Assembly: GCA_000002445.1 (NCBI GenBank)
Contig: AE017150.2
Coordinates: forward strand, 480,001-544,000
DNA: 64,000 nucleotides
DNA from: Trypanosoma brucei
Taxonomy: Eukaryota
Direction: 5' to 3'
Shown here: in pieces, positions 12,455-39,904 of the stretch
Position numbering within the stretch: the stretch's first letter is position 1
Layout of the letters: each line of letters starts with the position of its first letter
Notes under the pieces: generated by a model
What the model was told of the DNA's origin: nothing
Seen by the model: only the letters and a program-made list of their open reading frames with translations
Database searches by the model: none
Translations under genes and position numbers: made by a program

Positions 12455-13300
12455 TTAAGTGTATAACGTGCGGCGAAAGCGGTGTCTTCGCCTGTGCTCC
12501 CGCCACCAACGCCATCCCAACCCCATTAAAACTCCAGCTCCTAAACCCCCCAAGTGGGCGGCGTGGCCAACAGTTTCGCCAGGTCCCCACCACCACCCCC
12601 ATCCCGTACCTGATGATCCCGATGTGGGTTTTCCCCCGAGTGTTGCGGTAGCGAGTTTGAAGACCTCCAAAGCAGCTGCCATCCACACAGTAATCCAAGT
12701 GCCCCTGTAGGCTGCTCCAAACCCATGAATCGCGTATCCACCAGCGCTGGCTCCACACATGAAGGATGTATCCACCCGGTGCTTTCCCACACTGTACGTT
12801 ACACTACCAACCCAACTGTCAAACTGTGACTTAAGGGTGGAGAAGATACCTTCCTCTTCTTCATGAAAGAAACCGATGAGACCCTTCACAGAGAACATTC
12901 CCTTCCATCTCTTCCACTTCAACTGCGCGTAGTCAAAAAGCAGCTGCCCAGCAACACCGCTGACGCCCCCAATAATGAGAACGGCGGTTGCGCCAGCGGC
13001 CTCCTTGATGCTTTTCCACATGCCGCGGTCCGCTACACCGATCTGAAAGCAATCTTCCCCGAGCTCTAAGAGTGTGCACAATAGCAGCATCACGTTTCCC
13101 ACAAAGTGTTCATCAGAAGCATGCACAAACATATGCGTTACGAGGACAAGCGGGTTACGCTTAAATGCCGAGACGGAAAAGCCATAGTCCTGCACACGTG
13201 CCAGGCACTGAAAAGGAGTTGGCCACTTTCCATCCGCAAAATGGACAAGCAAGCAAATCCATACGGGCGTCAGGCGGATTGCTATGCATGTGGGAATCAT
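12455..13300 (-). CDS. Rhomboid-like intramembrane serine protease
   Basis: The ORF-track start is TTG, and the first ATG is at 13298-13300. The TM2 signature is LVTHMFVHASDEHFVGNVMLLL (the rhomboid H..F.H...H...N motif). The catalytic-Ser motif is MCGASAGGYAIHGF (GxSx) and the catalytic-His TM motif is HAAHLGGLGAGVLMG (AHxGG). Multiple hydrophobic helices are present. Confidence 0.6.
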   Translation of the reverse strand: MIPTCIAIRLTPVWICLLVHFADGKWPTPFQCLARVQDYGFSVSAFKRNPLVLVTHMFVHASDEHFVGNVMLLLCTLLELGEDCFQIGVADRGMWKSIKEAAGATAVLIIGGVSGVAGQLLFDYAQLKWKRWKGMFSVKGLIGFFHEEEEGIFSTLKSQFDSWVGSVTYSVGKHRVDTSFMCGASAGGYAIHGFGAAYRGTWITVWMAAALEVFKLATATLGGKPTSGSSGTGWGWWWGPGETVGHAAHLGGLGAGVLMGLGWRWWREHRRRHRFRRTLYT

Positions 13301-14284
13301 CACCGTCCCTGAGAAGTCACACAAATGCTCCCTCGCAACAATTCACGTCGTCTTCTTCCCGTGCGCCACTCGAGTCGGCGCAGCGCGACGAGTTCCTTTC
13401 ACTTGGCGTGCAATTTAGTAATGAAGCACACCCAAACCCCTAAAGGAACAACAACGGACCTGTTAGGGTAAATGTCCCAGCTCCGTCCCACTGCACGCCA
13501 CCGTTCCTAACCTTCGTTTCACAAAACCCCCTCTTTTTTCCCCCCTCACCAGTATTGAGGCAACTGGGAGACTGACGTAGCCGACAGCAGAGACGGCAAG
13601 AGCTGGTTAGTTGAAGCCTTCACACACGGGTTAACACTGCGCGATCATCAACAACTACAACCTAGTTTCCGTACAAGCACACGAGGCCCACAAAAACAAC
13701 CACCAGACGGTAAGCAAAAGTCAAAGAATGAGAAGAAGTTCGTACAAAGCACTCTGAACGTAGGAAAAAACATGGAAGGGAAGGCAGTAAAGCAAGAAAA
13801 AAAGTGCAAAATGCGGGCGGCCACGCTAGACCAAGTAATTGTGTCAACACACAGATGCTAAAGTGAACAATCAAAAGACACTAGAAGAAGTGTGGGATGT
13901 GTTCACAGGTAACAGTCGAACGACAGAGATGAAAGGAAAACAAACGGATCAAAGGATGAAAAGTGGAAAGGCGAGAGGCGAATAGGGATTGTTGGCTCCC
14001 TCTTCCCAGGTGGCGAAAACATGTTCACTTAAAGTCTTTTTGACTTTTTCTACACCGTACTAGAACCCCCTTTAACTTAACCAGTAGCCATATAAAGAAT
14101 CATATATTAAAATACCTACAATCTGCTACAGCCGAAGAGTGAAGCAGTACAACAGACACGATTATATTTATGTCCACGTGACCCAACGCAACAGCAGAAA
14201 AGGGGGAAAAGCTGCTTAAGTCGAGCAGTTAACGGTGCGCAAATTGACACAGGCACATCAACTGCAAAGATCAGCATGTTCGCT

Positions 14285-15097
14285 CTACGAATGGGTAATA
14301 AGGACACCGGGTTTGAGGCTCTTATCCACTGTCACCGCAACAGTCCAGTTATCAATGAGTTTCGCAATATACACTGCTGCCCATTCAAGTTTCTTGTTTA
14401 CACGCGCCTTGAGCACGTTGCCCTTCACCAGAACACAGTCTGCTTCCACACCAACAACACCTGTCCATGGCTGGCCACGTCCGCACACAACCTCAGCACC
14501 AACAACGACACGATGGGGGCACTTTGGCACACGAGCAGTGATACTGGTGGTGTATGTGTTGAGTTTATTTGTGCGGACGGCTGCCGTGTAACCGCAGCGC
14601 GCGTAGCGGCACGAAGCAGTCCAATCACAGTTGCCTTTTGCTCCCAAATTGTAGAGAGCACCGCAGCCAACGCTGCAGTATGGCCCGATAGCTGTACCAG
14701 CACCAACTTCCAACGTTTTTTTCGTCAGTTTTTCATGCAGGGAAAGGAGACCCTGAAAGTTTCCTTCATGGCTCACCTCGTAGTTCCCATTTTTGTTCAC
14801 CACACCCTCAATTTTGTGGCCTTTATAGTGGTACGTCACAGTTCCAGTGACATTTGAGGTAGATGTTGCGTACGTGCCCTTCAAGGCCGCACCGCACTGA
14901 CTGATCGTATATTCCAGATCTGTTGAAAATGCGCCATCGGATGTGACGGTGGGGTTCAGGATGAGTTTATCCTTGGGACCTTTGAACTTGGACTCCAGTT
15001 TCCACTTTTGCGCACTGCTGTAGTTCTTTGTCAGTAGGTCTTTCGCATCCTTGTGGTAGTCCTTATACAGGACGAGGGATTTTGCAGGTGCAAACAT
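14285..15097 (-). CDS. VDAC: Mitochondrial outer-membrane porin VDAC (copy 1 of a tandem pair)
   Basis: ATG at 15095-15097. 270 aa. The N-terminal helix LYKDYHKDAKDLLTKNYS parallels the VDAC DLGKSARDVFTKGY motif. It shows the alternating hydrophilic/hydrophobic pattern of a beta-barrel. The C-terminal KVNKKLEWAAVYIA...SLKPGVLITHS parallels human VDAC KVNKKLETAVNLAW...TLKPGIKLTLSA. Confidence 0.8.
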   Translation of the reverse strand: MFAPAKSLVLYKDYHKDAKDLLTKNYSSAQKWKLESKFKGPKDKLILNPTVTSDGAFSTDLEYTISQCGAALKGTYATSTSNVTGTVTYHYKGHKIEGVVNKNGNYEVSHEGNFQGLLSLHEKLTKKTLEVGAGTAIGPYCSVGCGALYNLGAKGNCDWTASCRYARCGYTAAVRTNKLNTYTTSITARVPKCPHRVVVGAEVVCGRGQPWTGVVGVEADCVLVKGNVLKARVNKKLEWAAVYIAKLIDNWTVAVTVDKSLKPGVLITHS

Positions 15098-15600
15098 CCT
15101 TGTAACGGAAAGTTGTTTGAATAATAAAGAATATTAGCTAGTGACGATAAGGGTGTGGTAAAATAGATGGAAAGGGGGAAACGAGAGGCTTGAGCGACAG
15201 GTCACACGACAGGTGTAAGAAGTCATGTGGAAATAATTTGTATTGCGTGTCCACATGTGTACCTTACGTAACTGTGGACCAACGTAGTCGTAATAAAGGG
15301 CTGAATTCCTAATTGCTAAGTTTGCACGGTAAATACAATGCGCGTTTATACATATAGATGCTGCTAAGTGTTTTTGCCCCCCGGGCTTCCATCCCCCCTG
15401 GCAGAGCTGCCGATACAATCCATCCTAACGCTCGATAAAACATAGGTGGAAGCTCGACGAATACCCACCCTATTATTGGCTCCGTTCTTGTCCATGTTAC
15501 CCAACTTTGGCGGTAAATTGCTGGTACACCGAAAACGAACAAACAAACAATAAAAAAATACGTTCAAAGAAAAAAAAAATAAAGTAATATAGTAAACGAT

Positions 15601-16413
15601 CTACGAATGGGTAATAAGGACACCGGGTTTGAGGCTCTTATCCACTGTCACCGCAACAGTCCAGTTATCAATGAGTTTCGCAATATACACTGCTGCCCAT
15701 TCAAGTTTCTTGTTTACACGCGCCTTGAGCACGTTGCCCTTCACCAGAACACAGTCTGCTTCCACACCAACAACACCTGTCCATGGCTGGCCACGTCCGC
15801 ACACAACCTCAGCACCAACAACGACACGATGGGGGCACTTTGGCACACGAGCAGTGATACTGGTGGTGTATGTGTTGAGTTTATTTGTGCGGACGGCTGC
15901 CGTGTAACCGCAGCGCGCGTAGCGGCACGAAGCAGTCCAATCACAGTTGCCTTTTGCTCCCAAATTGTAGAGAGCACCGCAGCCAACGCTGCAGTATGGC
16001 CCGATAGCTGTACCAGCACCAACTTCCAACGTTTTTTTCGTCAGTTTTTCATGCAGGGAAAGGAGACCCTGAAAGTTTCCTTCATGGCTCACCTCGTAGT
16101 TCCCATTTTTGTTCACCACACCCTCAATTTTGTGGCCTTTATAGTGGTACGTCACAGTTCCAGTGACATTTGAGGTAGATGTTGCGTACGTGCCCTTCAA
16201 GGCCGCACCGCACTGACTGATCGTATATTCCAGATCTGTTGAAAATGCGCCATCGGATGTGACGGTGGGGTTCAGGATGAGTTTATCCTTGGGACCTTTG
16301 AACTTGGACTCCAGTTTCCACTTTTGCGCACTGCTGTAGTTCTTTGTCAGTAGGTCTTTCGCATCCTTGTGGTAGTCCTTATACAGGACGAGGGATTTTG
16401 CAGGTGCAAACAT
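15601..16413 (-). CDS. VDAC: Mitochondrial outer-membrane porin VDAC (copy 2, nucleotide-identical CDS)
   Basis: The 270-aa translation is identical to the ORF at 14285-15097. ATG at 16411-16413. Confidence 0.8.
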   Translation of the reverse strand: MFAPAKSLVLYKDYHKDAKDLLTKNYSSAQKWKLESKFKGPKDKLILNPTVTSDGAFSTDLEYTISQCGAALKGTYATSTSNVTGTVTYHYKGHKIEGVVNKNGNYEVSHEGNFQGLLSLHEKLTKKTLEVGAGTAIGPYCSVGCGALYNLGAKGNCDWTASCRYARCGYTAAVRTNKLNTYTTSITARVPKCPHRVVVGAEVVCGRGQPWTGVVGVEADCVLVKGNVLKARVNKKLEWAAVYIAKLIDNWTVAVTVDKSLKPGVLITHS

Positions 16414-16787
16414 CCTTGTAACGGAAAGTTGTTTGAATAATAAAGAATATTAGCTAGTGACGATAAGGGTGTGGTAAAATAGATGAAAAGAAAGGGGGAA
16501 ACGAGAGGCTTGAGCGACAGGTCACACGACAGGTGTAAGAAGTCATTATTTATGCAGTGTGACAATTTCCGTTGGCCGAACGGTCCCAACTGTTCTCGAC
16601 AAGCGTCCTCCGAGTGTTATCTGTTGAATGTACAAAGGTAATCTGGCACCGAATAGTTGATTGGCGAGTAGACGGCACTGCATTGCGTGATCTGGGAGCG
16701 CCGCACCGGAAGTGGGCTCAGGCACAAACTGCGAGGTGCCGCGGCACATTTTTGCTATTGCACCGATTTGAAAGGAACGAACTCATT

Positions 16788-16797: not shown

Positions 16798-17928
16798 CCG
16801 TCGAGAACCTTGCGATATAAGGTGGAGCTTTCGGGCGTAAAAGCTGCTAATGTGCAGTCACCCATACGAAAAAAAATAAAAAATAAACCACCCTTTTTGC
16901 CTCACAAGTATGTTCAAATCGGCAGAAAGTCGGGGACTAAACATGCACCACCGAAAGAACGCACACGATCTTCATAAAATCAGTGGTGTCATCATCCCAC
17001 CCATCTTTCTGCAGTACAAGTAATGGTGGTGGAAGAGATGATGGTAGCGTCACTTTAAAGTAGAAGCGCTATTTAGTTCCGTCGCGAGCTAGTGTGAAAG
17101 TAAAAATACAAAAGGATCATGTGAGTATTCAAGTCCCGACACTCACGTTGGGCACACATGTCTGCGGCATCTCCAGTACTTTTTCCCCATCAAAACAACA
17201 CCCATCTTCGTGCGCCGACGCGCGGGCGGAAGCACATCTAAGAACATCACGCGTTTGTGTGTTTGTACGCAATACGGCGTGCACGTGAGTGCCGAATGAA
17301 AGAAACTTCAGAAAGGATAAGGGGCACAAAGGAATCATTGCAGTGAATAAAACAAAAAAAAAGAGTAATGATGGCAGATGACATTTTGTGGGTGTGAGAC
17401 GAACAGGGCAAGAACTAAAAAAATAAAACGGGAAGGATCGTTACCCCCGCGTTGGAGTCGTATGGTGTGTATGTTTGCTCTTAATAATAAGTACCACAGC
17501 CGTTTGGACACTTACCCAAACAGTCACGGCCGCTGAACTTCCATGTAGTGAGACCATCACGCCTTCCTGTGGGTCCACTTCCCTTGTTGAAACCGTTCTT
17601 AATGTTAGTAGCCTGAATACATTCTAACGTGCGGGCACGCAAGAGCGAGAAAACAAAACATCTTCCGCGAAACAACGTTGCCCGCAGCTCGTGGTGCACC
17701 CGTAGCGCAAACCAACAAACAGTGCGCATTTAATAATTTGGACAATTGCCACATGCGCTAGTCAAGCATATACGTAAACAACCGCAGCATGAACCAATCA
17801 ACCATGCCTCTTGATGACTAAACACATGCGAAGCACTCGAGCAAGCAGTTTACCGGTCCTCGCGTATTCATTGAGGCAGTGCCGGGGCTGTGATCGATAC
17901 CGTTCTGATGAAACTTCAACTGTGAGCC

Positions 17929-20241
17929 TCACATAGGGTCCGAAACACCGTGCCTGCGGGATCTATGTACTGCAGCCTCTTGAAGTACCTGCCGAAGTAA
18001 CAGCAAACCGTAGGGAATCAAACGCGCCTCTCCTGCACCCGGCGCTGCGTGGGATGCCCTGTCACCCCCTAACGCATCAGGTTCCTCGCCGCCAGTTTCT
18101 TGTGCGTAGTTGGGCACTGAACCACTTAAGCCCGTGAGTGTCCTACTGCCCCTGGCGCCGGCAACATTCGTTGAAAAAGCAGGAGCATATATGTCTTCAG
18201 TTTTGTGCAGAAGTGGCTGCGGTTGAAACGCCGCCGTCACTTCATTTGTGGCCTTGCAGGTGCCGCCTTCAAATGGATGTTCGGTAAGTTCACCGGATGC
18301 TGGAAAGAGTCGTGCATAAGTCGGTGGCAACGGAGCAGCGGAACATGACGAGGGTGGCTGCTCCCGGCCACGATTACCGCTCTTGTCATCCGCATCATCG
18401 GCAGGGCCGCTTTGACCTCGACCTTCTCTGCCACGCTGCGTCGAGCCGCCTACTGAAATCGGGGGTGCCGTGTGCGCTTCCCACGGGTGTGAGGTGGTGC
18501 TCTCCCCGCTTTGCTTGCTCACCGAAGCGGGACCCGCGCTCGCTCCCGTGGCTTCTGTGAGCGTAGAGCCTCCACACGTTCCTATGTCATCATCGGTTAC
18601 TATGGTGCTTACGCCAGCAGCAAGTGGGCATGATGTGCGCGATGCCGCACCAGCGTAGGAGTCTTGCAGGGTGCTGGACTTCAAACCGGCGTGATCAGCA
18701 TTAATGGCGCCGGCACATTGACGCGTAGTGGGGGGGAGGGCCGTTATCTTGGACAACATCGAGCGGTTTAATGGACCGTCATCCTTTTGCCCTGTGAGCA
18801 TCGGCGACTTTGCACAACCAACGTCGACCATCTCGATTAGTTGGCTAGGGGCCTTCAATTCGCCTTCACTTTCATCCACCAAGTCCCCTCGAGTTACAGG
18901 TGAACTGGAAACCTCTTTGCCCAAGACTGGTGTCACGGGCGTAACGGTTGCACTAACGGACACGTGTGAGTGGGGTGCCTCCTCTACATCGTGCATACTT
19001 CTTTCCTCTTTACTGCAAAAGTCTGTCCCAGATATGGAAACGACACCGTCTTCAGTGCGAAAAAGACTTTCAACGGTGTCTTCTGCGGCCGCATTGGGTG
19101 AGGGTTCGTGCAGTGATGCTTCTAGCTTATCAGTCGGTAAACGGGGGCCGTTCAACACCTCCCCACGTGGCTGCTCGCGCTGTTTACCCCACCAACACTG
19201 CAGATCACCAACTTCACCGTTATGATAACGGTGAACATTTTTACTATTGCTATAGTCAGCACTTCTTCCAACGTCACTGCTGTCGGTTCTGTCGCCGCCC
19301 CTCCCGTTCTCATGTAATGCCATTTCGCCCGCCGTACTGCACAACGAAAAGGTGGTGCCATCAGCGGGAAGTTCTTCACTGCAATGGATAGGTTCTCTCT
19401 GCCCTTTACACCCTCCTTGTTGCACGTCTAAGCAAGGTGGGCTGTCAACCAGTTCAGTTTGCGTATCGCTTTCAGCAGCCTCGGGCACTTTCAAGTTATC
19501 CACTGTCTCGGAGGCGCTGACCTTCCCATTAGTGTCGTGACCTTTACTGAGAGCCATTTCATCCCCGCACGTTAGCGGCCGTCCTGTCTCTTCTCCTATT
19601 CTCCTGCCCGACATCAGCCCACTCGTGGCCCCGTCACTGTGTTCAATGTTGGTAGTCAATCTCCCTTTGTTCGTCTCGGGTCCGGCCGCAGGATAGCCGT
19701 CTTTACCCTTAGCCTCACCAAAGCCCTCGTCTCGTGCTGTTGGCGGTTCCTCCATGAGGGTTTCGTCATTCCATATAATTCCCCTCGTGCGATTTCTGGA
19801 GGGCGGGGCGCGTCCACCGGAGGGAGTAGATGATTTTTTAGGAGAGTTAGGAGTTGTGCAGTCCGTAACCTCCCCATGAAGACCCAGGAAACGAACCCGT
19901 CGGTGAACAGCACTTTCCAAATCAACCCACTGCGAGTCCGCTACGGAAACAACCGCGGATAGAATGATTTGTAAACACGCAACCTTTTCAGCTACTTGAT
20001 CATTGCACACGTTCACCTCTCCTCCTACACAGGGCGACGAAGCGCAGAGGGTGGCGAGAGAGTCAACCACACCAATGGCCCGTCGAACCGCTGCGAGAGC
20101 CTCTTCCGATGGATTACCAAAATCGCCGCTGTAAGGTCCTTCAATATGCGGCTCGGATGGAAGTGAAAGAGGAGCTGGGGATGAACCCGCCGCGGCGGTA
20201 CACTGTCTTTGATATCGTTCGTAGTGTGGTTGCCCTGACAT
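17929..20241 (-). CDS. Hypothetical low-complexity (Ser/Gly/Thr/Pro-rich) protein
   Basis: Long minus-strand ORF. The ORF-track start at 20430 is GTG. In-frame ATGs are at 20427 and 20241 (MSGQPHYERYQRQC). The stretch between them is pyrimidine-rich on the coding strand (FLCLPTHFLFPP), which looks like a splice-acceptor tract, so I prefer 20241. No recognisable domain. Confidence 0.5.
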   Translation of the reverse strand: MSGQPHYERYQRQCTAAAGSSPAPLSLPSEPHIEGPYSGDFGNPSEEALAAVRRAIGVVDSLATLCASSPCVGGEVNVCNDQVAEKVACLQIILSAVVSVADSQWVDLESAVHRRVRFLGLHGEVTDCTTPNSPKKSSTPSGGRAPPSRNRTRGIIWNDETLMEEPPTARDEGFGEAKGKDGYPAAGPETNKGRLTTNIEHSDGATSGLMSGRRIGEETGRPLTCGDEMALSKGHDTNGKVSASETVDNLKVPEAAESDTQTELVDSPPCLDVQQGGCKGQREPIHCSEELPADGTTFSLCSTAGEMALHENGRGGDRTDSSDVGRSADYSNSKNVHRYHNGEVGDLQCWWGKQREQPRGEVLNGPRLPTDKLEASLHEPSPNAAAEDTVESLFRTEDGVVSISGTDFCSKEERSMHDVEEAPHSHVSVSATVTPVTPVLGKEVSSSPVTRGDLVDESEGELKAPSQLIEMVDVGCAKSPMLTGQKDDGPLNRSMLSKITALPPTTRQCAGAINADHAGLKSSTLQDSYAGAASRTSCPLAAGVSTIVTDDDIGTCGGSTLTEATGASAGPASVSKQSGESTTSHPWEAHTAPPISVGGSTQRGREGRGQSGPADDADDKSGNRGREQPPSSCSAAPLPPTYARLFPASGELTEHPFEGGTCKATNEVTAAFQPQPLLHKTEDIYAPAFSTNVAGARGSRTLTGLSGSVPNYAQETGGEEPDALGGDRASHAAPGAGEARLIPYGLLLLRQVLQEAAVHRSRRHGVSDPM

Positions 20242-20795
20242 GGTCTTTAGAACGATTCTTCCCCTCCTGTTTACACCAGAAACTGCCTTTACCAAGGGTA
20301 TCCACGTGCATGGGGGAAAAAGGAAATGAGTGGGCAAGCATAAGAAGAAACTCAACCGAGAGTCTTTGTGTGCCAGAGCATAAAATAAGTGTGTGAACAA
20401 CAAAGTGCGACACATACAAACGAGCATCACATACCAACAGTTTTATACGTCTGTTTATCAATAACTCGGACTTTAATCACAGCGACTGTGTCATACGCCA
20501 TAACCCAGCGGTAACGACGCTGGCAGGGGAGTTAGTAGAGTACTGCGCCGTGCTGCTCCGCAGCAACCTCTCCACGCCAATGACGACCCCCTTCCCCGTA
20601 AAGACCTACCCATGCACACTTACCAGTTTCGATCAGCGGAAAGGCCACATTACTTTGTAAAAGCGATGCGCACAATGACAACAACAGCAAAAAAGTGTGA
20701 ACTTACGGCAACAAGCTAAACTCGAAAGAGTCTTGTTCCTCGCCCCTCACCCACCTCTTTCCGTTTTACGACGTGCCACAAGGGTGCCACAATTG

Positions 20796-30263: not shown

Positions 30264-33200
30264 GTGACTGTACAAATAATAAGGGACAACCTCTTGCCGG
30301 AGGTGGCAGCAACAACACTATAATCGCTTTTCTTCCTGTCTATTAAGGTACACCAAAGAAATCTGTCGCAACACAGCCTAATTTGAACGTAGAACCGGAG
30401 GCTTACCACCCAACGTCACGCGCTTCCGTATATATATTTTGTGCCGTATACGAGGGTGGTAAAAGGGTGAAGGGGATCAAATCAGCGACAGTGACTGTAA
30501 TATACAATATCTTGTTACCCCTAGAACCCACTCCCCCCTCCTTCAGGCCTGCAAGTACAAATGCTTAAACTTTGCGCTTTACAAACGCTTAGCTGGATCC
30601 GAGATCCTCTTCCCTTAATACCTCCTACGCTATACAAAAGCTATAGGGTGCAAAACTTACGACTTTTTGCTGCTGACGTGTTGAACAAAAAATGAAAGGT
30701 GCATAGAGAAGACATCGACTTGCAGTGTTCGAAGAAAGATATTGTTAAAAAACAGTTGACTCATTTTATATTTTAGAATACTCCCCACGTGCATATTCTG
30801 CGCTCTTGCCAGTGCGGTGATACGACCAAAAACCCACAATAAGTCACAACACAGACCATCTGATGTGACGAGACATCAATGTCCTGACCCTGTGTAGAAA
30901 CAACAGGGTCGGGTGTTTGACCACTAGTCTCTCAAAACTCCTCCAAGCAATGACACGGAACACAAATGAACAGTTGGAACGGTTGAACACATCAGCTCTT
31001 CTACCCAACATATATTTCATATGAGCAAGTGTCCAGTAATTCACTCAGTAGTTAGGCCGCGGCTGTTGAGACGAAAGAGCTCCTTATCCAACCGATCGTT
31101 CCGTTGATAAAGAGGAAACATTCTACCTTGAGATGCCGCTAGTGATCCTGGTCGGCTGGGACGCCCCTTTTGCGCAGGATATAGTTGACCCCTTATATGG
31201 AATGTATAGTTCAACGGCCGGTAAAGAGCAGCGGCATACGCAGGATTCAATTGAAGCGCAGCCGCTGCCTCATCCATATTGAAGCGACCTCGACGGTCAC
31301 GCGAGCCTAGAGGGTAGTCACGCCAGCTGCTCCACAAAAATCGTGTCCTCTGGTACATTTAACTAAGCTAGCGCAGACGTTAGGATATTTGAGCGACACC
31401 CCTTACGATGTACAGTCCGTCAGGGAAACCCAATTCTATTACACTTCCCTGGATTTACCAAGTACACGACACCTATGTTCACCCTAAGAGTCCCAGAGAA
31501 GTACAGAGCACAGTGGAAGGACTTGTTAAATGTTAAGAACAGTAAGAAGACCGTCGTATCGTCATCAAGCGGAACGCACGTGGGGTAATGCAAAGACCAG
31601 GGTAAGGGTAAACAGAGCCTGAACAGCTATTTCGAGACAGCTTTTCAACTCAATAACAATACATCGACGTACAGACACCACCAATGGCCCCCCCTGGTAG
31701 CAGAGTCACGACTGCAAACAACAGGAGAAGTTCCAACACTGTCAATCATTAGGGGAGAGGGCAAGTAGACCGACCGTAAAATCTACAGCATGTAACGCCG
31801 TACGGTCGATGCAACGTATCGTTCACACTAGGAAGAGGATCTGAATCCAATGAGGAACACCCGCCAACAGCATCACGCGGGGTAAAGCCCATCAAACCAT
31901 AGTCCAAGATGGCAATGATGCCAGCGCCAGCAGAGACGCGCAAGCCAACCACACACTTGATTAGTTTCAGAGAAGTCAGGTCTTCCAAAGGCATGTTACA
32001 GGTCACAGCAGCTGCGACGCGGGAAGGGAGGTACCAAGGAGCTCACGGCGGACATTTTTTACCACCAATAAACAATTAATCAAAACTGGCCATACAGACA
32101 AACAGAGCCATTACAACCAGTAGCATGCTGCCTGACAGCGGAAGACAGCAATACAAGGGCAATCACAAATTTAAACAGAAGCGCGTATCTCCACAAAAAG
32201 ACACATCATCAGGATGTCATCCAAGCAGTCATGAAAGCAGCTTCGAGAGAGTAAAGGAAATAGCAATTCGAAAACCCCCATGCAGCGAGTTAAGCGGGGA
32301 ATAATGCTGTGGTATGCAGGAAATGGGGTTGAGACAAACAGATCCATCCAAAGCGGTAGTAAACAATGGAAGAGCAGGGACACTGCATGCCCAGTAAAGG
32401 TTGCCTTAAACATACTACTGGTGTATAAAAAACAATACAATATACAACACTGTGGTCGGTTACGTTTACATTATTCGCTACCAACGGTGAACCGACGCCG
32501 ATAGACGATCAATGACTAGAACTCGGCTAAAAGTAGTGCCAACTAGGGAACATACCCACCAAATAGACGTCATCAAACAAGCAAACACGAAGAGTGTGGC
32601 ATACGGTGAGAAGTGACGGCCGCTGCGCCGTCATGCCATCCAACTAAAGGAGTGTTGAAAGGCACTTTGGAACATGGTCGATCGCAGAAAAGAAGGGTTC
32701 TTTTATCCCATCTGTTAGTGTTTCCTGCAGAGCAGAATATGCGGGAATACAGACAGCAGCTTGGTATCCGACTGCAGTTAGTTGGCAGAAGCGACCTCAG
32801 ATACTTGATTGAGGCGGTCTCGCAGGATGCAGTGAGAAACTATCGCTTAAGGAGTCAGCTCCACTTTCCACCAAGAAACTGTCAACCCACATCCCGTCAC
32901 TTCGTAACAACGGTGCTGTGGAAGACAGTACCAAATCTTCACTGCCACTAAAAAAATGCACGGAAAGAGAGAGAGGCCTCTGTAGCCGTTTCAACTTTGT
33001 CGATGCCATCAATGCTACTTTCAAACCTGGCGGTACAGAATACTACCAATAAACTCAGCATATTCACGACATTTCTTAACCACAAGCAATATTTCACTGC
33101 TTAGTGCCAGCATTAAAGCATCCCTCTGGCCTTAAATATCGTGCGTTGCCGCACCTTCGTTCTTGGTTATGCAGTAGCACTCAACTTCTGCTGCCCTGAC

Positions 33201-34300
33201 CCACCCTGGTGGCCCAGAACACAAAACAAATGGCGCTCTCTTAGTGCGGCTACTTGCTGTGCGTGAAGGTATACTCGTTCTGCGGACTGCCGTTTCATCG
33301 GATTGTTTCCATGAGGTTGCAACACTTCCATTGCCGCATTTTCCACAATTTTATTCGCTTGCTGTCGTCTCTATTGACGATACTGTGCTCGATCGATGTG
33401 GTCGTCAGCAGCTGGAGTACTCAAGCCATGTGCCTTCCTGAAGCGCGACGTGGAAGGCGCCTGCACGAACACACACACCGGTCAACTACGGCCCACCAAA
33501 ACTCTCTCTTATTCGATCGCATGCTCTTTCACGAGAAGTGGTGCAGCATTTCTACACTTCCAACTGTACTCCGCTTTAGGTAGAAACAACGATGTGCGGC
33601 CGCGTTAAGGTCATTGTCACAGCGAAATGAAGTTGCCCCATCGAACGGGTTGTAGATTGCAGTAGCAACGGGTGCCAAAAGCGCCACGAAGTTAACTTCA
33701 CGAGGGGAAGGAAACGAGTTAAGTCCCTCAAGCTTTTCACTGCCTGCCCGCAGGGTTGTTTCCGCTGAAAAAGAGGGTTCGAACGCCGACCCCGCGGTTC
33801 AGCCTTTACTTTTTGCTGCAACAGGCGTCAAAAACTGATGCAATAACTCATTTGGAACTTCGAGCGGGTTGAACGCGGTGGCTAACAGAAGGCGAAGGCA
33901 ACCGGCTTACGTGTATCAAGCGCCAGATGGGCACCACCCAGTTTCCTTATCCCACATACCAACGATCCATTGACGCACTTCGGTGCAACAGGTCACTCGC
34001 GCTCATTTTGCCATTGCTTCGTCCGCGCTGCACAAGACGCTTACAACAGGAATCGTTCCTTACTTACCTTTCCATACGTTTAGTCCACGCATACCTTGGC
34101 GGGGCCTTTTCCACCCACTTTCTCAAATGTGTCAGCGTCCCCGATTGACCGTCTAACCCCACCTTGGCCTCTTCTTTGTCTTGTCCCCCTTTACATGCGC
34201 TTGGGTTCTGTGCGTTGGCATGTCATCCGTTGCAGCACTGAGCCTGTTCTAACTGGCAGAAGCGCCGCCCGCTGCACTTTCTGACTCTATCGCAGCTTTT
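30264..34300 (-). promoter_or_regulatory. Left half of the divergent strand-switch region; A+C-rich on the plus strand (G+T-rich in the direction of minus-strand transcription); putative dispersed Pol II start zone for the minus-strand cluster
   Basis: No ORF over ~105 aa on either strand. The composition is the reverse of the right half. The position lies between divergently oriented first genes. GT-rich start regions are described for T. brucei Pol II units. Confidence 0.45.
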
Positions 34301-37300
34301 GATATCACAGCTCCAGCCGACGTAGACCCTCGGTCCTTGCTGTTTGGATTCATGCATTTCGTGGGTAAGGGTCGCAGGACTTCTGCGCCTGGTTTCAAAT
34401 CTTCCAGCCTAAACAGCTTGGAGCGGCGGCGTTCCAGTCGTCCCCAAGGCGCCAACCCTCGCACCGCATCCTCACTTACCCCGCAGCCAGTGTGAGATAA
34501 CACAAGGGGCTCGTACTGTAGCAGTAGGGGAAGTTCCTTGCACTTTATGTATTAGTTGCTGCTCGGCTCTCCCTTGTGTGTCCGCCCCTCTGCTGCGTAT
34601 GTTTGTCTAGGGAATTTTGTCCCATACGTGTTGTCTGCGGCGCAGTCGTCGCGGTGCCCTTTGTGCCAGCGTTGACGAAAGGAACGTTTCATCACCCACA
34701 GCCTCTTTTATCATATCGTCGGTCGGGTGCTTATTGTTGGTGTGCGACGGAGTCCACGGTGTGTGGGCACACTTCCTCTGAGGCCGGCTGCGTCTGTACC
34801 ATGGCCCGCTCTTTGGCCAAGGAGCACCGGTTTGCTGTAAATTATGCGCAGTTTACGCCGTTGCGTCATGGTTGGAGGTTGCCAGCTCCTGTTGCCGTCG
34901 GTCTGGTGCCTTTCGTCGTCTTAAAAATCGTCTGCGTCTCAGGGGGCCGGCTTCGCTGTTTTTTGATTTGGTCTCGCTGTGGGGCTACCGGGCCCTTTGG
35001 GTGCAGTATATGTGATATTTCCTCCAGTCCGCGCTCCGCGAGCTTGTTTGATGGGTATGGCGTTGCCTGCGCCCTCTTGTCCGTAGGCATTGGTGCCCTC
35101 CCTTGTCACGGCGGCTGGCCACCTTCGCTACATACGTTGTGATTGTTTAGTGCTTCAGGTTCTGCAGTATATCAAGGTCTGGGCTGGGTTATGCGGGCGC
35201 GGCCTCGTTTGTGCGGCGTCCGACTCGATTGGGCCACTTGGGGTGCGTGGAGCCGCGTACGATATATGGTGGTTTGCTTAGTAAGGATCGTCGTGCCTCC
35301 TTTTAAGTATTTCTAGCGGTCAGCCCCATACAGCGCCTTCGTGGTTGCCTGGAGAAACCACCATCGGCTTTGTGCACGTTCTTGGCGCAGCTCTCTGCGT
35401 GTGTTCCTGGAAGGCGTGTGTTTGGCGTATCATGTCTTTGAGCAGTTGTTCGTTTGTCTTGGGGACTTTGACTGCAACTTTGGCAAATGTGCTCTTTCCT
35501 TTTGGTGGCATTTTTTTTGTATATCTCTGGGCCGGATGTTGTACTTCTACTTTGCTTTTTCTTCCCCCATGGCAGTCGTTTTAAGACTTGACTGAGGAGA
35601 TTGACCTCGTGCGCTTGGTAGTTTCTTAGTGACCTGTTTTCTAATTGTTGAATGGCTTTCTCTTACCCAGATGTGTGCGTTGTGACAGCGAGCGGCTGTT
35701 ACATTATGATGAAGTCGTTGTTTCCTTAGAAGTGAATCACGAGATGGACTCCCGACTGAACCATTTTGGTGGAGTCGAGATGTTCTTTATTTTAAATTAT
35801 TTTTATCAATCTTTTCTTTTGCCGACTCGCAGCACTTGTACTACTCGTGCTTGCGGACTCTAGGAAAGAGGGGAAATTTCGTTTCGGGTTGTTCTGTAGA
35901 AGATTGTACGATAGCATCCTAAATATTCCTTATGGCTGTTGGGTAACCGCCATGGTGCATTGTTTTGTGTGATTAAAAGCGCATTGATCTCCGCAGTGTT
36001 CTCTATTTCTTGTTTTGGTTAATAATGCCTCCTTTTTGTTGTACCCGTGGCTTTTTTTGTTTGAGAGGGATTTAACGCTTTTTTCCACAGTGTGTACTGT
36101 CGTGTGTGTGTGAAAGCCGACGTTCCACCATTGCCCCCGTGATGTGACCTCCGTTTTCCCCCTTTGAGAGCATTATGTGCACATTTGCGGGGAGTCAACG
36201 TTTTTTTGGCGTGGGTAAATGTTTAGGTGTAAATATTTTGGTATTGCGATTGAAGGACGGAGGTTGCCTCGCTGTGTTCGGAAGCCTGATTTACACTGTC
36301 AACAACTTACAGGACCCTCAATAGTCGTCGGAGTGCGTGACCAAGCTACAGTGCACGCCTTTTGCTGTTGTACTTCCTTGTATTGCAGGGCAACCAGGAT
36401 ACTTACACGGTTTAGTAGACAGCCCTTTGTGTGGCGTGTGACAGAGGGCTGAAAAGCTACCTTCGATCCGTTTTGAAGGAATGGACGTGCTTCACGGAGG
36501 GTTTCGTCTTTTAAATCCCCCTTTCGAACTCGTTTAAAGCTTTTTCCATAGAGTGTTATGTTGCCCTTGCTATGCTTCTTTTATTACTTTTACCGGCAGT
36601 GGTATGCGTTTTATCTTTTCTCCTTTAGTGACTTCCGCTCCTACGTAGCGTGGGGAAGTTACAGTATCTTCATAATGTGTGGATATGGTGGTTGCTTTTC
36701 TTTCAAATCTTTTCCGTTAGGCATGTGTCTCGGTTTTTTCGTCGTGCCTCTGAGTGCGATCGCTGTTGCCACTATTTCCAATCCTTTTCAAAAGCCGAAT
36801 GAAATAATTGGTCGTGCTGTTTGCACTTTTCCTGTATGCATAGGTCGCTAACAACCTACTAACCCCTTGTCATCTCGTTTGTGTTGCAGTGTAAAACTTG
36901 CTGTGTTGGTGCTCGGTCTGTGATTGCGGCTGCTGGCCCGTTTGCTTCACTAACTGGTGACGGCTGTCGGGACACACATGCCGAGGAGTAAACGTATAAG
37001 CTTGTATCTTGTTTTGTGCTTTCGGAATTTTCGTGAATTCCTTTCTTCCTTTCGCACCTTCTCTGACTATTTTCCTCTATTGTGTTCCAACAGCACCGAG
37101 AAGAGGTGTTGCTGCAACTCCCTGCATGCACATGGACGACGGCGTTGTTTTTCTTTTCCATCAATATTCTTCCAGTGGTATTTCTCCGCTCGGACCGTGG
37201 TTGTATTTGGTTGTACTGAAAGGTGATGGAGGTTACACACACCACTCTTTTGTATAGTTATGTAACCGTGGCAACTGCGGGGAGCCCTGCTGGTAATTTG

Positions 37301-39904
37301 TTTTGGTTGCTAATGGGGGTTGTCTTATACGTTTTTTTCTTTGCACGGGATATGGTTATTCGTGTAATCTTTGTTTTCGGCTACTGCCCTTATTTCTGTT
37401 TCCTGCGCCACTCGTCTCTGTTGGAAGTTGCACGGGGCGACAGGACCAGTTTTGGTAAGATGGGTCGTGGACCTTTCGGGGTTATCTCCGTTTCACAACT
37501 GGTGGATCGCGATAGTAATATATATGCCTGCTGTTCTTTTTTTTTATCTTTGACAATAGAATCGAAATCCTTACTTGTATCGGTATAGATTCTTTTTACA
37601 AATTTCCATTTCCGTCTCTGCTTGTGTTCTTAGTTCCTGTTTTTGCATTTCGGTGATGCAGGTGCGTCGGTGCGCACTTCGTGCCGATCATCCAGCGGCC
37701 GGCTCTACCTGATTTTTTGAATCAGACATGCTCTTCGTAATGTTTGGTCATTGTTTGGCAGTGTAGTGTACTTCGTGAGATAGGTACGATCTTTTGTTTT
37801 CGTAGTAACGCTTTCCCTATGTTCTCCGATACGGTGTAATACTTGGAATCGGTTGTGTGCTTTATGTTTGCCACTGTAGCGAAGCACTGGGTGATGGTTG
37901 GGGTGTAAAAATATGTTATGGGATCCGTCAAGTTGCTTTGTATTTGTTAATTTCCGTATGGGAGGATGTTGCTCAATGTGGCTGATACTTTGTGGTCTCT
38001 TGATTTTGTTGTTCGCATGGGCCGACGTCGCCGAGGGAGCAGTAACCCATCGTGACGCTGCGTGTGTGTGATGATTGCACGGAGGGAAAGACTTTCGTGT
38101 TAGTTTCCTTCGTAGGGCTCATATCGTACTTCCGTGTATTGTTCTTTATATTGTGATCCTAATTTCTGTAACATCTATTGGCTCGCACTCCCTCTTTTTA
38201 TTTGTTTCTCCGGGGATTTTTTTTAACTTTCCTCTGCTGGTGGACCCTTTGAGTGCAACGCAGACTGTTGTGATGATGCCGGTGGGGTTTGAGAATGGGA
38301 AGAAGATGCCTCCGGGGAGAGTAGTTGAGCGACTATTTTTGGCTCTTTCGGATTGCATCTACCCTAATTCTTTGTGGGGTTCCACTTAATTCTGCTCTCC
38401 GTTGCTTCGAAGAAACTTCCTTTCTGGCACGCTAATGTTCAGCGTCAGCTTTGTGGCGCCTTTATTAACGGCACTTTGTGCTACCCTTGGTCCGTGTTTC
38501 TGTACTATTCTTCTTTACTGCACGAGCGTGCAGTGTCGCTCTGTCGGACATTACAACATATGCTATGCATATCGTCTCCAGTTTTTTCTTCGTGTATTTA
38601 CGGGCTGGTTGAGGGGGCCTTTTCGATGTAACTTTATTCGTTTTCTGACGCTTTTTCACAGGTGCTTGAGAGTCACCGACAATTTGTCCATCCGATACAT
38701 ATCTTTCGTTTCCTGAAGCCTTTTTTCTTCAAAAAAAAAGGCTGATTAACTGGGTTGTGCTTGTTCATCCGTCATTTGGGATCTAGCTCTTCTTTTACGT
38801 TTTAACGAGCTGTGTTAGGTCGGTATATCTTGAGAGTATGGTGTGCTTGGCGTGTAGTTGGGAGGATCAGGGAGGTGTTTTTGTTTGTGTCCATTAACTA
38901 ATCGGCTTGCTCGGTTTTGTTGTTTTGCGCAGAAGAAGCATGGTGTTGCTGGGTTGTGTGAGTCGGATGCATGCGAGTGATGAAGCAATGAAGACAGTTT
39001 AGAAGAGGTCTATGAGAATATGTTACTGTGTTTATTGCTCCGCCACTATACTTTGTTAATGATAATGGACACAACGGTAACTATGGGGCAGTTACCAACT
39101 CCCTTAGGTCAGATTGGTTTACTGCTTATTTCGCTGTGCGCATCCCGATTGTTGAAGCGCACTTTCTTCATTTGTGCATATCATTTTCCGAAAATCGAGG
39201 GAGCATTGTCAACCGTTTTTTTGTTACGGCTAGTACGGCGACATCAAGTTGGTATGAAGCTATCTAAATGAAGGTGATCGCAATGAAAGCAGAGGACGGG
39301 TGGCCGACGATGCCCATTTGGGAAATGCGTTCTCACTCATTCGTTCTTTCCACTAGGGCTTTCTGCGGTTGATTTCCTCTATTTGTGGGTTACTTGAAAT
39401 CAATTTCCACATTTTTATACCTTTTTGCAAACGTGTGACATCCACCTGCTGTATGCGTCCACCTGAAGTTAGTCCAGACACTTAAGTTAACATTGATGTA
39501 CATTTTCTACCTCTTTCATTGCTTTACCTTGTTACATTCATTAAGCACATTGCTGTGTGGCTCACAGCAGGGGCCTTGTGCAAACAGAAATAGCTCCCGT
39601 TTTCTGTGATAGGAGGCAATAAGGTGTGAGTCAAAGTTCGGGGAGATTGGGTTCTGCTTCCCGATAGGACCCGCCTCTAGCGCAGTTTGGTGTTAAAAGA
39701 TCTTGTCGAAGGAATTTGTACTGGTTGAGGAAGAGGAGTTGTTGGCTTGAGATATACAACAGCTGTTTACCGCATTTGCACATTCTGAACAGGCGTGCCT
39801 GTGGCCCATAAGCAAGGAATTGCTCACGGTATTCTCTGGAGGGGTACCTTTCTATTTCCGGGCTGATAGGCGCTTTTTCGTTCAGCCACTTAACGTCCCC
39901 CGTG
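34301..39904 (+). promoter_or_regulatory. Right half of the divergent strand-switch region; strongly G+T-rich and A-poor on the plus strand for ~5.5 kb; putative dispersed Pol II start zone for the plus-strand cluster
   Basis: Visible T/G excess over A/C on the plus strand from ~34.5 kb to the first ATG at 39905 (runs such as gtttgtgtg, ttttggtt, gttgtt). No ORF over ~190 aa, and those present are T/G-codon artefacts (F/L/V/C/G-rich). Confidence 0.5.

What the first reader, a model, noticed from the sequence alone, without database searches (positions are those of the whole stretch)
14284..16546. Perfectly identical tandem VDAC gene pair (1316-bp period) with different 3' flanks
The two 813-bp CDSs and ~130 bp of 5' flank are identical wherever I compared them by eye, apart from a single 4-bp indel in the 5' flank. 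The 3' flanks (the future 3' UTRs) are unrelated. This implies a very recent duplication or ongoing gene conversion that homogenises the coding region while allowing copy-specific 3' UTR regulation, a common trypanosome strategy for stage-specific expression. Identical copies are also easily collapsed in assemblies.
Basis: seen in the sequence. Interest (0 to 1): 0.5.

Follow-up and report, generated by a model that had tools for sequence, protein, structure and literature searches.

The report
Known tandem trypanosome VDAC gene pair
These are the two already annotated, head-to-tail copies of the mitochondrial outer-membrane channel gene VDAC of Trypanosoma brucei (Tb927.2.2510 and Tb927.2.2520), kept identical by recombination between the copies, as in many trypanosome gene arrays, so the finding is real but ordinary.

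Summary
Two 813-bp ORFs on the minus strand (14285-15097 and 15601-16413) are 100% identical. Their 129/133-bp 5' flanks differ only by one 4-bp indel. Identity stops 1-4 nt after the stop codon.

The protein is the T. brucei VDAC. The match to the eukaryotic porin Pfam family is only just above threshold. The AlphaFold model has an N-terminal helix plus 19 strands, with TM 0.85 to human VDAC1. The sequence is 100% identical to the T. brucei-group protein.

Published splice and poly(A) coordinates fit the window at a constant offset of 480,000. That places the window at chromosome 2, 480,001-544,000, of strain TREU927, and identifies the genes as Tb927.2.2510 (downstream) and Tb927.2.2520 (upstream).

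The same locus, upstream of a rhomboid-like gene, holds 2 copies in T. b. gambiense, 4 in T. cruzi and 2 in T. rangeli. Copies are near-identical within a genome but 22-39% different between species. The T. cruzi and T. rangeli spacers are homologous. This indicates an old array under concerted evolution, not a recent duplication.

Both copies have distinct, experimentally mapped 3' UTRs (293 and 472 nt). Only the upstream one carries two UAUUUUUU (RBP10) motifs. Copy-specific regulation is therefore plausible but unproven.

Novelty: already known. Interest: low.

The parts
15601..16413 (-). Upstream VDAC coding sequence (first in the direction of transcription), 270 aa plus stop; equals Tb927.2.2520
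   Evidence: ORF. Identical to the other copy. Pfam Porin_3. 100% identical to the T. brucei-group VDAC. The gene name follows from the coordinate offset of 480,000 to Kolev 2010 Tables S4/S12.
14285..15097 (-). Downstream VDAC coding sequence, 270 aa plus stop; equals Tb927.2.2510
   Evidence: as for the upstream copy.
16414..16546 (-). Shared 5' block of the upstream copy (133 nt). It holds the polypyrimidine tract, the AG trans-splice acceptor at 16455-16454 and the 40-nt 5' UTR at 16453-16414. The extra TTTT of the 4-bp indel lies at about 16486-16489.
   Evidence: Repeat limits; sequence. The predominant splice acceptor site 496453 with a 40-nt 5' UTR in Kolev 2010 Tables S4/S12 matches window 16453.
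15098..15226 (-). Shared 5' block of the downstream copy (129 nt). It holds the polypyrimidine tract, the AG acceptor at 15139-15138 and the 40-nt 5' UTR at 15137-15098.
   Evidence: The predominant splice acceptor site 495137 with a 40-nt 5' UTR matches window 15137.
15308..15600 (-). 3' UTR of the upstream copy (293 nt, unique sequence). It has two UAUUUUUU motifs at 15581-15574 and 15560-15553, and the 17-nt island at 15505-15489.
   Evidence: Predominant poly(A) site 495308 and 3' UTR of 293 nt in Kolev 2010 Table S13. Motif positions. Island.
15227..15307 (-). Untranscribed or processed spacer between the poly(A) site of the upstream copy and the start of the shared 5' block of the downstream copy
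   Evidence: Defined by the poly(A) site and the repeat limit. It has no similarity to the outer flanks.
13813..14284 (-). 3' UTR of the downstream copy (472 nt, unique sequence). It has no UAUUUUUU motif. The 17-nt island lies at 14187-14171.
   Evidence: Predominant poly(A) site 493813 and 3' UTR of 472 nt in Kolev 2010 Table S13. Motif scan. Island.
12455..13324 (-). Downstream neighbour, a rhomboid-like gene (Tb927.2.2500). It serves as the conserved synteny anchor for the VDAC array across trypanosomatids and is not part of the repeat.
   Evidence: ORF. A rhomboid-like gene follows the VDAC copy or array in T. cruzi, T. rangeli and Angomonas.

Best explanation
This is the annotated tandem pair of VDAC (mitochondrial outer-membrane porin) genes of Trypanosoma brucei brucei TREU927, chromosome 2: Tb927.2.2520 upstream and Tb927.2.2510 downstream, both on the minus strand inside one polycistronic transcription unit.

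The pair is the T. brucei version of an old tandem VDAC array that sits upstream of a rhomboid-like gene throughout the genus Trypanosoma. Recombination between the copies (gene conversion and/or cycles of unequal crossing-over) keeps one block identical. The block comprises the polypyrimidine tract, the splice acceptor, the 40-nt 5' UTR and the CDS. Sequence outside the block has diverged beyond recognition.

The immediate effect is two doses of one abundant mRNA body and protein in an organism that has no gene-specific promoters. Each copy necessarily ends in its own 3' UTR. The internal copy uses the spacer, and the last copy uses the flank that leaves the array.

Shown: the identity, the gene identity, the synteny, the species-wise clustering of copies, and the mapped UTRs. 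Inferred: the recombination mechanism, dosage as the selective reason, and any difference in regulation.
For: Identity and limits of the repeat.

Protein identity:
- Pfam Porin_3 at 28.9 bits against a cutoff of 28.4.
- 100% identical to a protein named VDAC in the T. brucei group, 74% to T. congolense, 64% to T. cruzi.
- AlphaFold2 model with pLDDT 88.6, an N-terminal helix and 19 strands.
- Best PDB matches are human VDAC1 5xdn (TM 0.85), mouse VDAC1 and yeast porin.

Gene identity:
- Papers list Tb927.2.2510 and Tb927.2.2520 as T. brucei VDAC.
- Kolev 2010 Tables S4/S12/S13 give splice sites 495137 and 496453 (5' UTR 40 nt each) and poly(A) sites 493813 and 495308. These equal window 15137, 16453, 13813 and 15308, with the AG and ATG exactly where the sequence has them.

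Age of the array and homogenisation:
- T. b. gambiense has the same two copies and spacer, with 2 synonymous copy-specific differences.
- Three T. cruzi long-read assemblies have 4 copies with a period of about 1311 bp, differing by 0-2 nt.
- T. rangeli has 2 copies differing by 18 nt.
- Between species, CDS distance is 0.22 (T. cruzi versus T. rangeli) and 0.35-0.39 (T. brucei versus the others), and copies cluster by species.
- The unique part of the T. cruzi spacer aligns colinearly with the T. rangeli spacer (score 40, z about 20). The array therefore predates that split.
- The 5' limit of the shared block is similar in all three: about 116, 125 and 129-133 nt before the ATG.
- All 18 T. 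rangeli differences lie in CDS positions 217-597, with both ends identical (P about 1e-6 if positions were uniform). This mosaic is typical of conversion.
- The 4-nt indel state is shuffled among lineages: T. b. brucei long/short, T. b. gambiense long/long, T. equiperdum short.
- Non-coding divergence between T. b. brucei and T. b. gambiense is 0.5-0.9% in the flanks but 0 in the shared 5' block.

General pattern and dosage:
- Jackson 2007 documents concerted evolution and curtailed or different terminal UTRs in T. brucei tandem arrays.
- The pair gives about 63 mRNAs per procyclic cell (Kolev 2010 Table S6).
Against: No conversion event was observed directly in T. brucei.

With zero differences between the copies, the T. 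brucei data alone also fit a recent copy-and-insert of the 946-bp block 374 bp upstream.

The spacer of T. brucei could not be shown to be homologous to the T. cruzi or T. rangeli spacers. The only similarity lies in the shared 5' block and in U-rich, low-complexity stretches.

T. congolense and T. vivax loci, which would date the T. brucei pair, were not obtainable.

T. theileri shows one copy in its main contig.

Angomonas has two very different copies, 28.5% identical, so homogenisation is not universal at this locus.

The Pfam score is only just above threshold, and a sequence search of the PDB finds nothing. The VDAC assignment therefore rests on the fold and on cited experiments (Pusnik 2009, Singha 2009) that I could not read.
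Confidence: 0.87

Rival explanations
1. Very recent duplication. The 946-bp block (5' signals plus CDS) was copied only shortly ago in the T. brucei lineage, and the copies are identical simply because there has been no time to diverge. No ongoing homogenisation is needed.
For: There are zero substitutions in 946 nt. The layout U-a-A-B-a-A-D (U upstream flank, a shared 5' block, A coding sequence, B spacer, D downstream flank) is what insertion of a copy of a+A 374 bp upstream would give. That would explain why the spacer resembles neither flank.
Against: The same two copies with the same spacer and flanks exist in T. b. gambiense, so the pair is at least as old as that split. Flank divergence across that split is 0.5-0.9%.

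Syntenic arrays with a similar period and a similar 5' limit exist in T. cruzi and T. rangeli. There the array demonstrably predates speciation, yet the copies are near-identical.

The indel state differs among copies and lineages in a way that needs exchange between copies.
Confidence: 0.08
2. Sub-functionalised pair. Beyond dosage, the two copies are kept because their different 3' UTRs give different regulation. The upstream copy (Tb927.2.2520) is repressed in bloodstream forms through RBP10 binding to its two UAUUUUUU motifs and is induced in procyclic forms. The downstream copy (Tb927.2.2510) escapes RBP10 and gives basal expression. Selection for distinct UTRs would then explain why identity stops at the stop codon.
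For: - Two different 3' UTRs are really used (293 and 472 nt).
- UAUUUUUU occurs twice within 50 nt of the stop of the upstream copy, is conserved in T. b. gambiense, and is absent from 960 nt after the downstream copy.
- RBP10 binds procyclic-specific mRNAs through this motif (PMC5568443). The motif is enriched in 3' UTRs of procyclic-enriched mRNAs (PMC1636420).
- VDAC mRNA was enriched 3.16x and 2.88x in the RBP10-bound fraction and flagged as up in procyclic polysomes (S2 Table).
- VDAC mRNA is up-regulated in procyclic forms (PMC5879877) and is bound by ZC3H39/40 (PMC6648352).
Against: All published counts examined are on the identical CDS and cannot separate the copies; the two genes get near-identical numbers.

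In a two-copy array, different 3' flanks arise from geometry alone, with no selection needed (Jackson 2007).

In T. cruzi and T. rangeli the shared 3' stretch is 45-78 nt, so the end at the stop codon is not general.

The motif is common: 9.6% of all 3' UTRs carry it, and there are 16 on the minus strand of this window.
Confidence: 0.3
3. Assembly artefact. One real gene was duplicated in silico, or a longer array was collapsed to two copies.
For: Identical repeats are error-prone in assembly. T. equiperdum shows one copy, and T. grayi and T. vivax contigs break at the gene. T. cruzi has four copies.
Against: An independent T. b. gambiense assembly has two copies, each with a private SNP. Poly(A) sites have been mapped in both unique 3' flanks and a splice site before each copy. 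The spacer is unique sequence joined to both copies. A copy number above two cannot be excluded from the sequence alone.
Confidence: 0.03

Closest known systems
[quoted passage not shown] 2009, Singha et al. 2009, as cited in PMC6648352 and PMC5879877)
   Same: They are the same locus. The protein is 100% identical. Splice and poly(A) coordinates published for these two genes fit the window at an offset of 480,000.
   Different: Nothing; this is the known gene pair.
Tandem gene arrays of T. brucei evolving in concert (Jackson 2007, PMC1855330), for example the tubulin, histone, glycerol kinase and PFR (paraflagellar rod) arrays
   Same: Head-to-tail copies lie in one polycistron and the CDS is invariant. 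Paralogues group by species. The first and last copies have curtailed or different non-coding flanks.
   Different: There are only two copies, so there is no internal repeat of the spacer to compare. The pair is not named in the main text of that paper. The shared 3' stretch is almost nil, at 1-4 nt.
VDAC arrays of T. cruzi (4 copies) and T. rangeli (2 copies)
   Same: They have the same position upstream of a rhomboid-like gene, a similar period (1311-1326 bp) and a similar 5' limit of the shared block (about 116-125 nt). Copies are near-identical within a genome.
   Different: Copy number differs. The shared 3' stretch is 45-78 nt rather than 1-4 nt. The T. rangeli copies differ by 12 amino acids in the middle of the protein.
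Human and mouse VDAC1, and yeast porin (PDB 5xdn, 3emn, 9jvq)
   Same: The predicted fold is an N-terminal helix plus a 19-stranded barrel, with TM 0.83-0.85.
   Different: Sequence identity is only 14-16%. No sequence-level PDB hit was found. Tom40 structures also match at TM 0.73-0.81, so the fold alone places it in the VDAC/Tom40 superfamily.
RBP10 / UA(U)6 regulon of procyclic-specific mRNAs (Mugo and Clayton 2017, PMC5568443)
   Same: The upstream copy's mapped 3' UTR has two UAUUUUUU motifs. VDAC mRNA was about 3x enriched with RBP10.
   Different: The enrichment is below the paper's 3x-in-both cut-off (2.88x in one replicate). The copy that is bound is unknown. The downstream copy lacks the motif.

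Membership tests
Eukaryotic porin / VDAC (Pfam PF01459) | Sequence match to the family profile above the curated threshold | tested here: met
   The score is 28.9 bits against a cutoff of 28.4, E 9.9e-07, covering residues 10-255. The margin is narrow. Precomputed PF01459 hits exist on several homologues.
Eukaryotic porin / VDAC (Pfam PF01459) | N-terminal helix followed by a 19-stranded beta-barrel | tested here: met
   The AlphaFold2 model has pLDDT 88.6 and pTM 0.78, with a helix at 16-23 and 19 strands. This is a prediction, not a solved structure.
Eukaryotic porin / VDAC (Pfam PF01459) | Closest solved structures are VDACs rather than Tom40, Mdm10 or bacterial porins | tested here: met
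   The top hit is hVDAC1 5xdn_B (E 7.6e-12, TM 0.85). Tom40 entries follow closely at TM 0.73-0.81. Bacterial porins score TM below 0.5.
Eukaryotic porin / VDAC (Pfam PF01459) | Location in the mitochondrial outer membrane and metabolite channel function | not testable with these tools
   This is stated in PMC6648352, citing Pusnik et al. 2009. The primary papers are not in the library.
Trypanosomatid tandem gene array under concerted evolution | Head-to-tail copies on one strand within one polycistronic unit | tested here: met
   Both copies are on the minus strand, 503 bp apart, within a run of minus-strand ORFs from 609 to 30275.
Trypanosomatid tandem gene array under concerted evolution | The array is syntenic across species while paralogues cluster by species | tested here: met
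   Arrays lie upstream of a rhomboid-like gene in T. b. gambiense, T. cruzi and T. rangeli. The NJ (neighbour-joining) tree and distance matrix are. The T. cruzi and T. rangeli spacers are homologous.
Trypanosomatid tandem gene array under concerted evolution | Direct footprints of exchange between copies (mosaic tracts, shuffled variants) | tested here: inconclusive
   The T. rangeli differences are confined to CDS 217-597. The 4-nt indel state differs among copies and lineages. In the window itself there are no differences left to analyse.
RBP10 (UA(U)6) target mRNAs | UAUUUUUU in the mapped 3' UTR | tested here: met
   The upstream copy has two motifs, at +20 and +41 after the stop, inside the 293-nt UTR. 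The downstream copy has none in 960 nt, so the feature is not met for that copy.
RBP10 (UA(U)6) target mRNAs | Physical binding by RBP10 and repression in bloodstream forms, per copy | not testable with these tools
   The published pull-down gives 3.16x and 2.88x for the pair, counted on the shared CDS. The two copies cannot be separated.

The most novel reading that the evidence does not exclude
The two identical VDAC genes are a dosage switch written in their 3' UTRs. Tb927.2.2520 carries two RBP10 sites close to the stop codon and would be silenced in bloodstream forms and switched on in procyclic forms. Tb927.2.2510 lacks such sites and would supply the basal level. Selection for this division of labour would hold the edge of the homogenised block at the stop codon. 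The 17-nt island shared by both UTRs about 95 nt after the stop would be a common regulatory site, for example for ZC3H39/40.
Probability: 0.25. Interest if true: 0.35.

Novelty: already known. Interest (0 to 1): 0.1.

Why it matters
It matters little beyond good bookkeeping. The gene pair, its function and its UTR ends are already in the literature and in the reference annotation. Concerted evolution of tandem arrays is a described property of trypanosome genomes.

The practical points are these:
- Reads on the CDS cannot be assigned to either gene, so published per-gene values for Tb927.2.2510 and Tb927.2.2520 are really one value.
- Short-read assemblies tend to lose one copy.
- The unique 3' UTRs give a simple handle to ask whether the copies are regulated differently.

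Tried and rejected
- A simple unequal-crossover origin predicts that the spacer resembles the start of the downstream flank or the end of the upstream flank. Local alignment against shuffles found nothing significant. Only the 17-nt colinear island emerged. The banded test was chosen after seeing it, so it is suggestive only.
- The island was not found in T. cruzi, T. rangeli, T. theileri or T. grayi loci.
- The T. congolense locus is not on record. T. vivax gives only a 974-bp fragment. The age of the pair within African trypanosomes therefore stays open.
- A profile search of PDB sequences found no hit at E <= 1. The fold search was needed instead.
- The primary VDAC papers (Pusnik 2009, Singha 2009) are not held. 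Siegel 2010 has no held supplements.
- Splice-site read counts of 62 (Tb927.2.2510) versus 1375 (Tb927.2.2520) in Kolev Table S4 were not used as evidence of unequal expression. The sequence downstream of both sites is identical, so assignment of those reads is arbitrary.
- The bacterial promoter/terminator scan gave fewer sites than shuffles and is irrelevant in this eukaryote.
- BLAST of the odd 5' end of contig L003 gave only low-complexity matches.
Full report
**Observation**

The region holds two ORFs on the minus strand, 14285-15097 and 15601-16413. Each is 813 bp including the stop codon and encodes the same 270-aa protein. The two coding sequences have no mismatch.

In register, identity runs from 14284 to 15169 against 15600 to 16485 (offset 1316). 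It is then interrupted by a 4-bp indel and resumes for 57 nt, 15170-15226 against 16490-16546.

The genes are read from high to low coordinates. The copy at 15601-16413 is therefore the upstream one, and the shared non-coding stretch (129 nt in one copy, 133 nt in the other) lies 5' of each ATG. On the 3' side, identity ends one base after the TAG.

The 373-nt unique part of the spacer shows no significant similarity to the flank upstream of the pair or to the flank downstream of it.

One small exception is a colinear 17-nt island present in both 3' flanks about 95 nt after the stop, at 15505-15489 and 14187-14171, matching at 15 of 17 positions. It is found nowhere else in the window. In a banded test that I chose after seeing it, 1 of 1000 shuffles matched it.

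**What the genes are**

- The protein matches the Pfam eukaryotic porin family only just above threshold: 28.9 bits against a cutoff of 28.4.
- It is 100% identical to a protein named voltage-dependent anion-selective channel in the T. brucei group. It is 74% identical to T. congolense and 59-64% to T. cruzi, T. grayi, T. rangeli and T. theileri.
- A sequence profile finds nothing in the PDB.
- An AlphaFold2 model built on 16 homologues is confident (pLDDT 88.6). It has an N-terminal helix and 19 strands.
- Its best structural matches are human VDAC1 (TM 0.85), mouse VDAC1, zebrafish VDAC2 and yeast porin. Tom40 structures follow close behind, and bacterial porins are far behind.
- Papers list Tb927.2.2510 and Tb927.2.2520 as the VDAC genes of T. 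brucei. One describes VDAC as the main metabolite channel of the outer mitochondrial membrane, citing Pusnik et al. 2009. I could not read the primary papers.

**Where the window comes from**

Kolev et al. 2010 (PMC2936537) mapped RNA ends in procyclic T. brucei on chromosome 2 of the TREU927 reference (column headers).

| Gene | Predominant splice acceptor | 5' UTR | Predominant poly(A) site | 3' UTR |
|---|---|---|---|---|
| Tb927.2.2510 | 495137 | 40 nt | 493813 | 472 nt |
| Tb927.2.2520 | 496453 | 40 nt | 495308 | 293 nt |

Before seeing these tables I had placed the acceptor AG at window 15139-15138 and 16455-16454, with 40-nt 5' UTRs, from the sequence alone. Subtracting 480,000 from every published coordinate gives these positions and the two ATGs.

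The window is therefore chromosome 2, 480,001-544,000, in the same orientation. The downstream copy is Tb927.2.2510 and the upstream copy is Tb927.2.2520.

The shared 5' block is the polypyrimidine tract, the splice acceptor and the 5' UTR. The two mature mRNAs are identical from the spliced leader to the stop codon. They differ only in their 3' UTRs, both of which are in use.

**Recent duplication or homogenisation**

*T. b. gambiense.* An independent assembly has the same two copies, the same spacer and the same flanks, 99% identical to the window overall. Its two copies differ from each other at two synonymous sites, one private to each. Flank divergence between the two subspecies is 0.5-0.9%, yet it is zero in the shared 5' block.

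*T. cruzi.* Three long-read assemblies carry four tandem copies with a period of about 1311 bp at the same place, directly upstream of a rhomboid-like gene. In the error-free assembly examined (L005) the copies differ by 0-2 nt.

*T. rangeli.* It has two copies at the same place, differing by 18 nt.

*Between species.* The coding sequences differ by 22% (T. cruzi versus T. rangeli) and by 35-39% (T. brucei versus the others). All copies group by species. This could also result from independent duplications. However, the unique part of the T. cruzi spacer aligns colinearly with the T. rangeli spacer (score 40 against 11.5 +/- 1.4 in shuffles). The array with its spacer therefore existed before those species split, and the copies have been homogenised since.

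*Limits of the shared block.* The 5' limit is similar in all three species: about 116, 125 and 129-133 nt before the ATG. The 3' limit varies: 45, about 78 and 1-4 nt after the stop.

*Footprints of exchange.* The 18 differences in T. rangeli all lie between CDS positions 217 and 597, with both ends identical. This is a mosaic expected from conversion tracts entering from the ends. The 4-nt indel in the polypyrimidine tract is long/short in the window, long/long in T. b. gambiense and short in the single T. equiperdum copy. That again suggests exchange between copies.

All of this fits the account of T. brucei tandem arrays by Jackson 2007. That account includes the remark that the first and last copies usually have curtailed or entirely different non-coding flanks.

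I conclude that the pair is an old array kept uniform by gene conversion and/or unequal crossing-over. I cannot date the pair within African trypanosomes. The T. congolense locus is not on record and T. vivax gives only a fragment.

**Assembly issues**

The T. equiperdum assembly has a single copy joined to the upstream flank of Tb927.2.2520 and the downstream flank of Tb927.2.2510. Either an assembly collapse or a real unequal crossover would give exactly this.

The T. grayi contig ends just after the gene, and the T. vivax gene sits on a 974-bp contig.

The two-copy state of the window is supported by T. b. gambiense and by the mapped RNA ends.

**What the pair does**

The pair yields about 63 mRNAs per procyclic cell, in the range of cytochrome oxidase and ribosomal protein mRNAs (Kolev Table S6). 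In an organism without gene-specific promoters, a second copy doubles the template. This is the usual reading of such arrays.

Whether the two 3' UTRs also give different regulation is open.

Evidence in favour:
- The upstream copy's UTR has two UAUUUUUU motifs 20 and 41 nt after the stop, conserved in T. b. gambiense.
- None occurs in the 960 nt after the downstream copy.
- RBP10 binds procyclic-specific mRNAs through this motif and represses them in bloodstream forms.
- The motif is enriched in 3' UTRs of procyclic-enriched mRNAs.
- VDAC mRNA was enriched 3.16x and 2.88x with RBP10.
- VDAC mRNA rises in procyclic forms and is bound by ZC3H39/40.

Evidence against over-reading:
- Every count I could find is made on the shared CDS, so the two genes receive near-identical numbers.
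- In a two-copy array the 3' flanks must differ for purely geometric reasons.
- The motif is common.

I give this reading about 0.25-0.3.

**Verdict**

The finding is real and correctly described. It is the known VDAC gene pair of T. brucei, and its pattern is the known behaviour of trypanosome tandem arrays. It is not novel and is of low interest. The one testable loose end is copy-specific regulation through the 3' UTRs.

Noticed in passing
L003 1-79 (Logan contig ERR7929164_8574, 959 nt): This contig carries the VDAC CDS (3 mismatches to the window) and the first 30 nt of the Tb927.2.2520-type 3' UTR. Upstream of position -36 it has a different, very pyrimidine-rich 5' flank containing an AAGCTT (HindIII) site. 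That flank matches nothing in the window or the other loci except low-complexity runs. It could be a strain variant, a further copy or an engineered construct.
   Followed up: partly
L012 5355-6182 and 6584-7435 (Angomonas deanei LR877145.1): Angomonas has two tandem VDAC-like ORFs upstream of a rhomboid-like gene, the same synteny as in Trypanosoma. They are only 28.5% identical to each other. This is a diverged pair, where Trypanosoma has a homogenised one. Whether it is the same ancient duplication is open.
   Followed up: partly
L009 3675-4496 and 5001-5822 (T. rangeli): The two T. rangeli VDAC copies differ by 18 nt and 12 aa, all within CDS positions 217-597. The first 216 and last 225 nt and the adjoining flanks are identical. 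This is a mosaic pattern with mostly amino-acid-changing differences.
   Followed up: partly
L002 5872-6814 (T. equiperdum CZPT02000973.1): The assembly has a single VDAC copy with the upstream flank of Tb927.2.2520, the short form of the polypyrimidine indel and the downstream flank of Tb927.2.2510. This is either an assembly collapse or a real deletion by unequal crossover.
   Followed up: partly
window 14171-14187 and 15489-15505 (minus strand): A 17-nt island, GTTGGGTNACNTGGACA, is shared by the two otherwise unrelated 3' UTRs at nearly the same distance from the stop. It is unique in the window and absent from the T. cruzi, T. rangeli, T. theileri and T. grayi loci. It may be residual homology or a common binding site.
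   Followed up: partly
window 17237-17305 (minus strand): Kolev 2010 Table S4 lists splice acceptor sites of a 'novel transcript', Tb2.NT.17, at chr2 497237 and 497305 (96 reads). These lie between the 833-aa ORF (17929-20430) and the upstream VDAC copy. I did not examine what it encodes.
   Followed up: no
window about 30300-39900: All ORFs of 220 aa or more from 609 to 30275 are on the minus strand, and those from 39902 onward are on the plus strand. A divergent strand-switch region, a likely transcription start zone, therefore lies in between.
   Followed up: no
L004 1072-4506 and L006 6320-7106 (T. cruzi long-read assemblies): Some copies of the four-copy T. cruzi VDAC array appear frameshifted in tblastn. 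The equivalent copies in L005 are intact and identical. Uncorrected long-read errors are more likely than pseudogenes.
   Followed up: no
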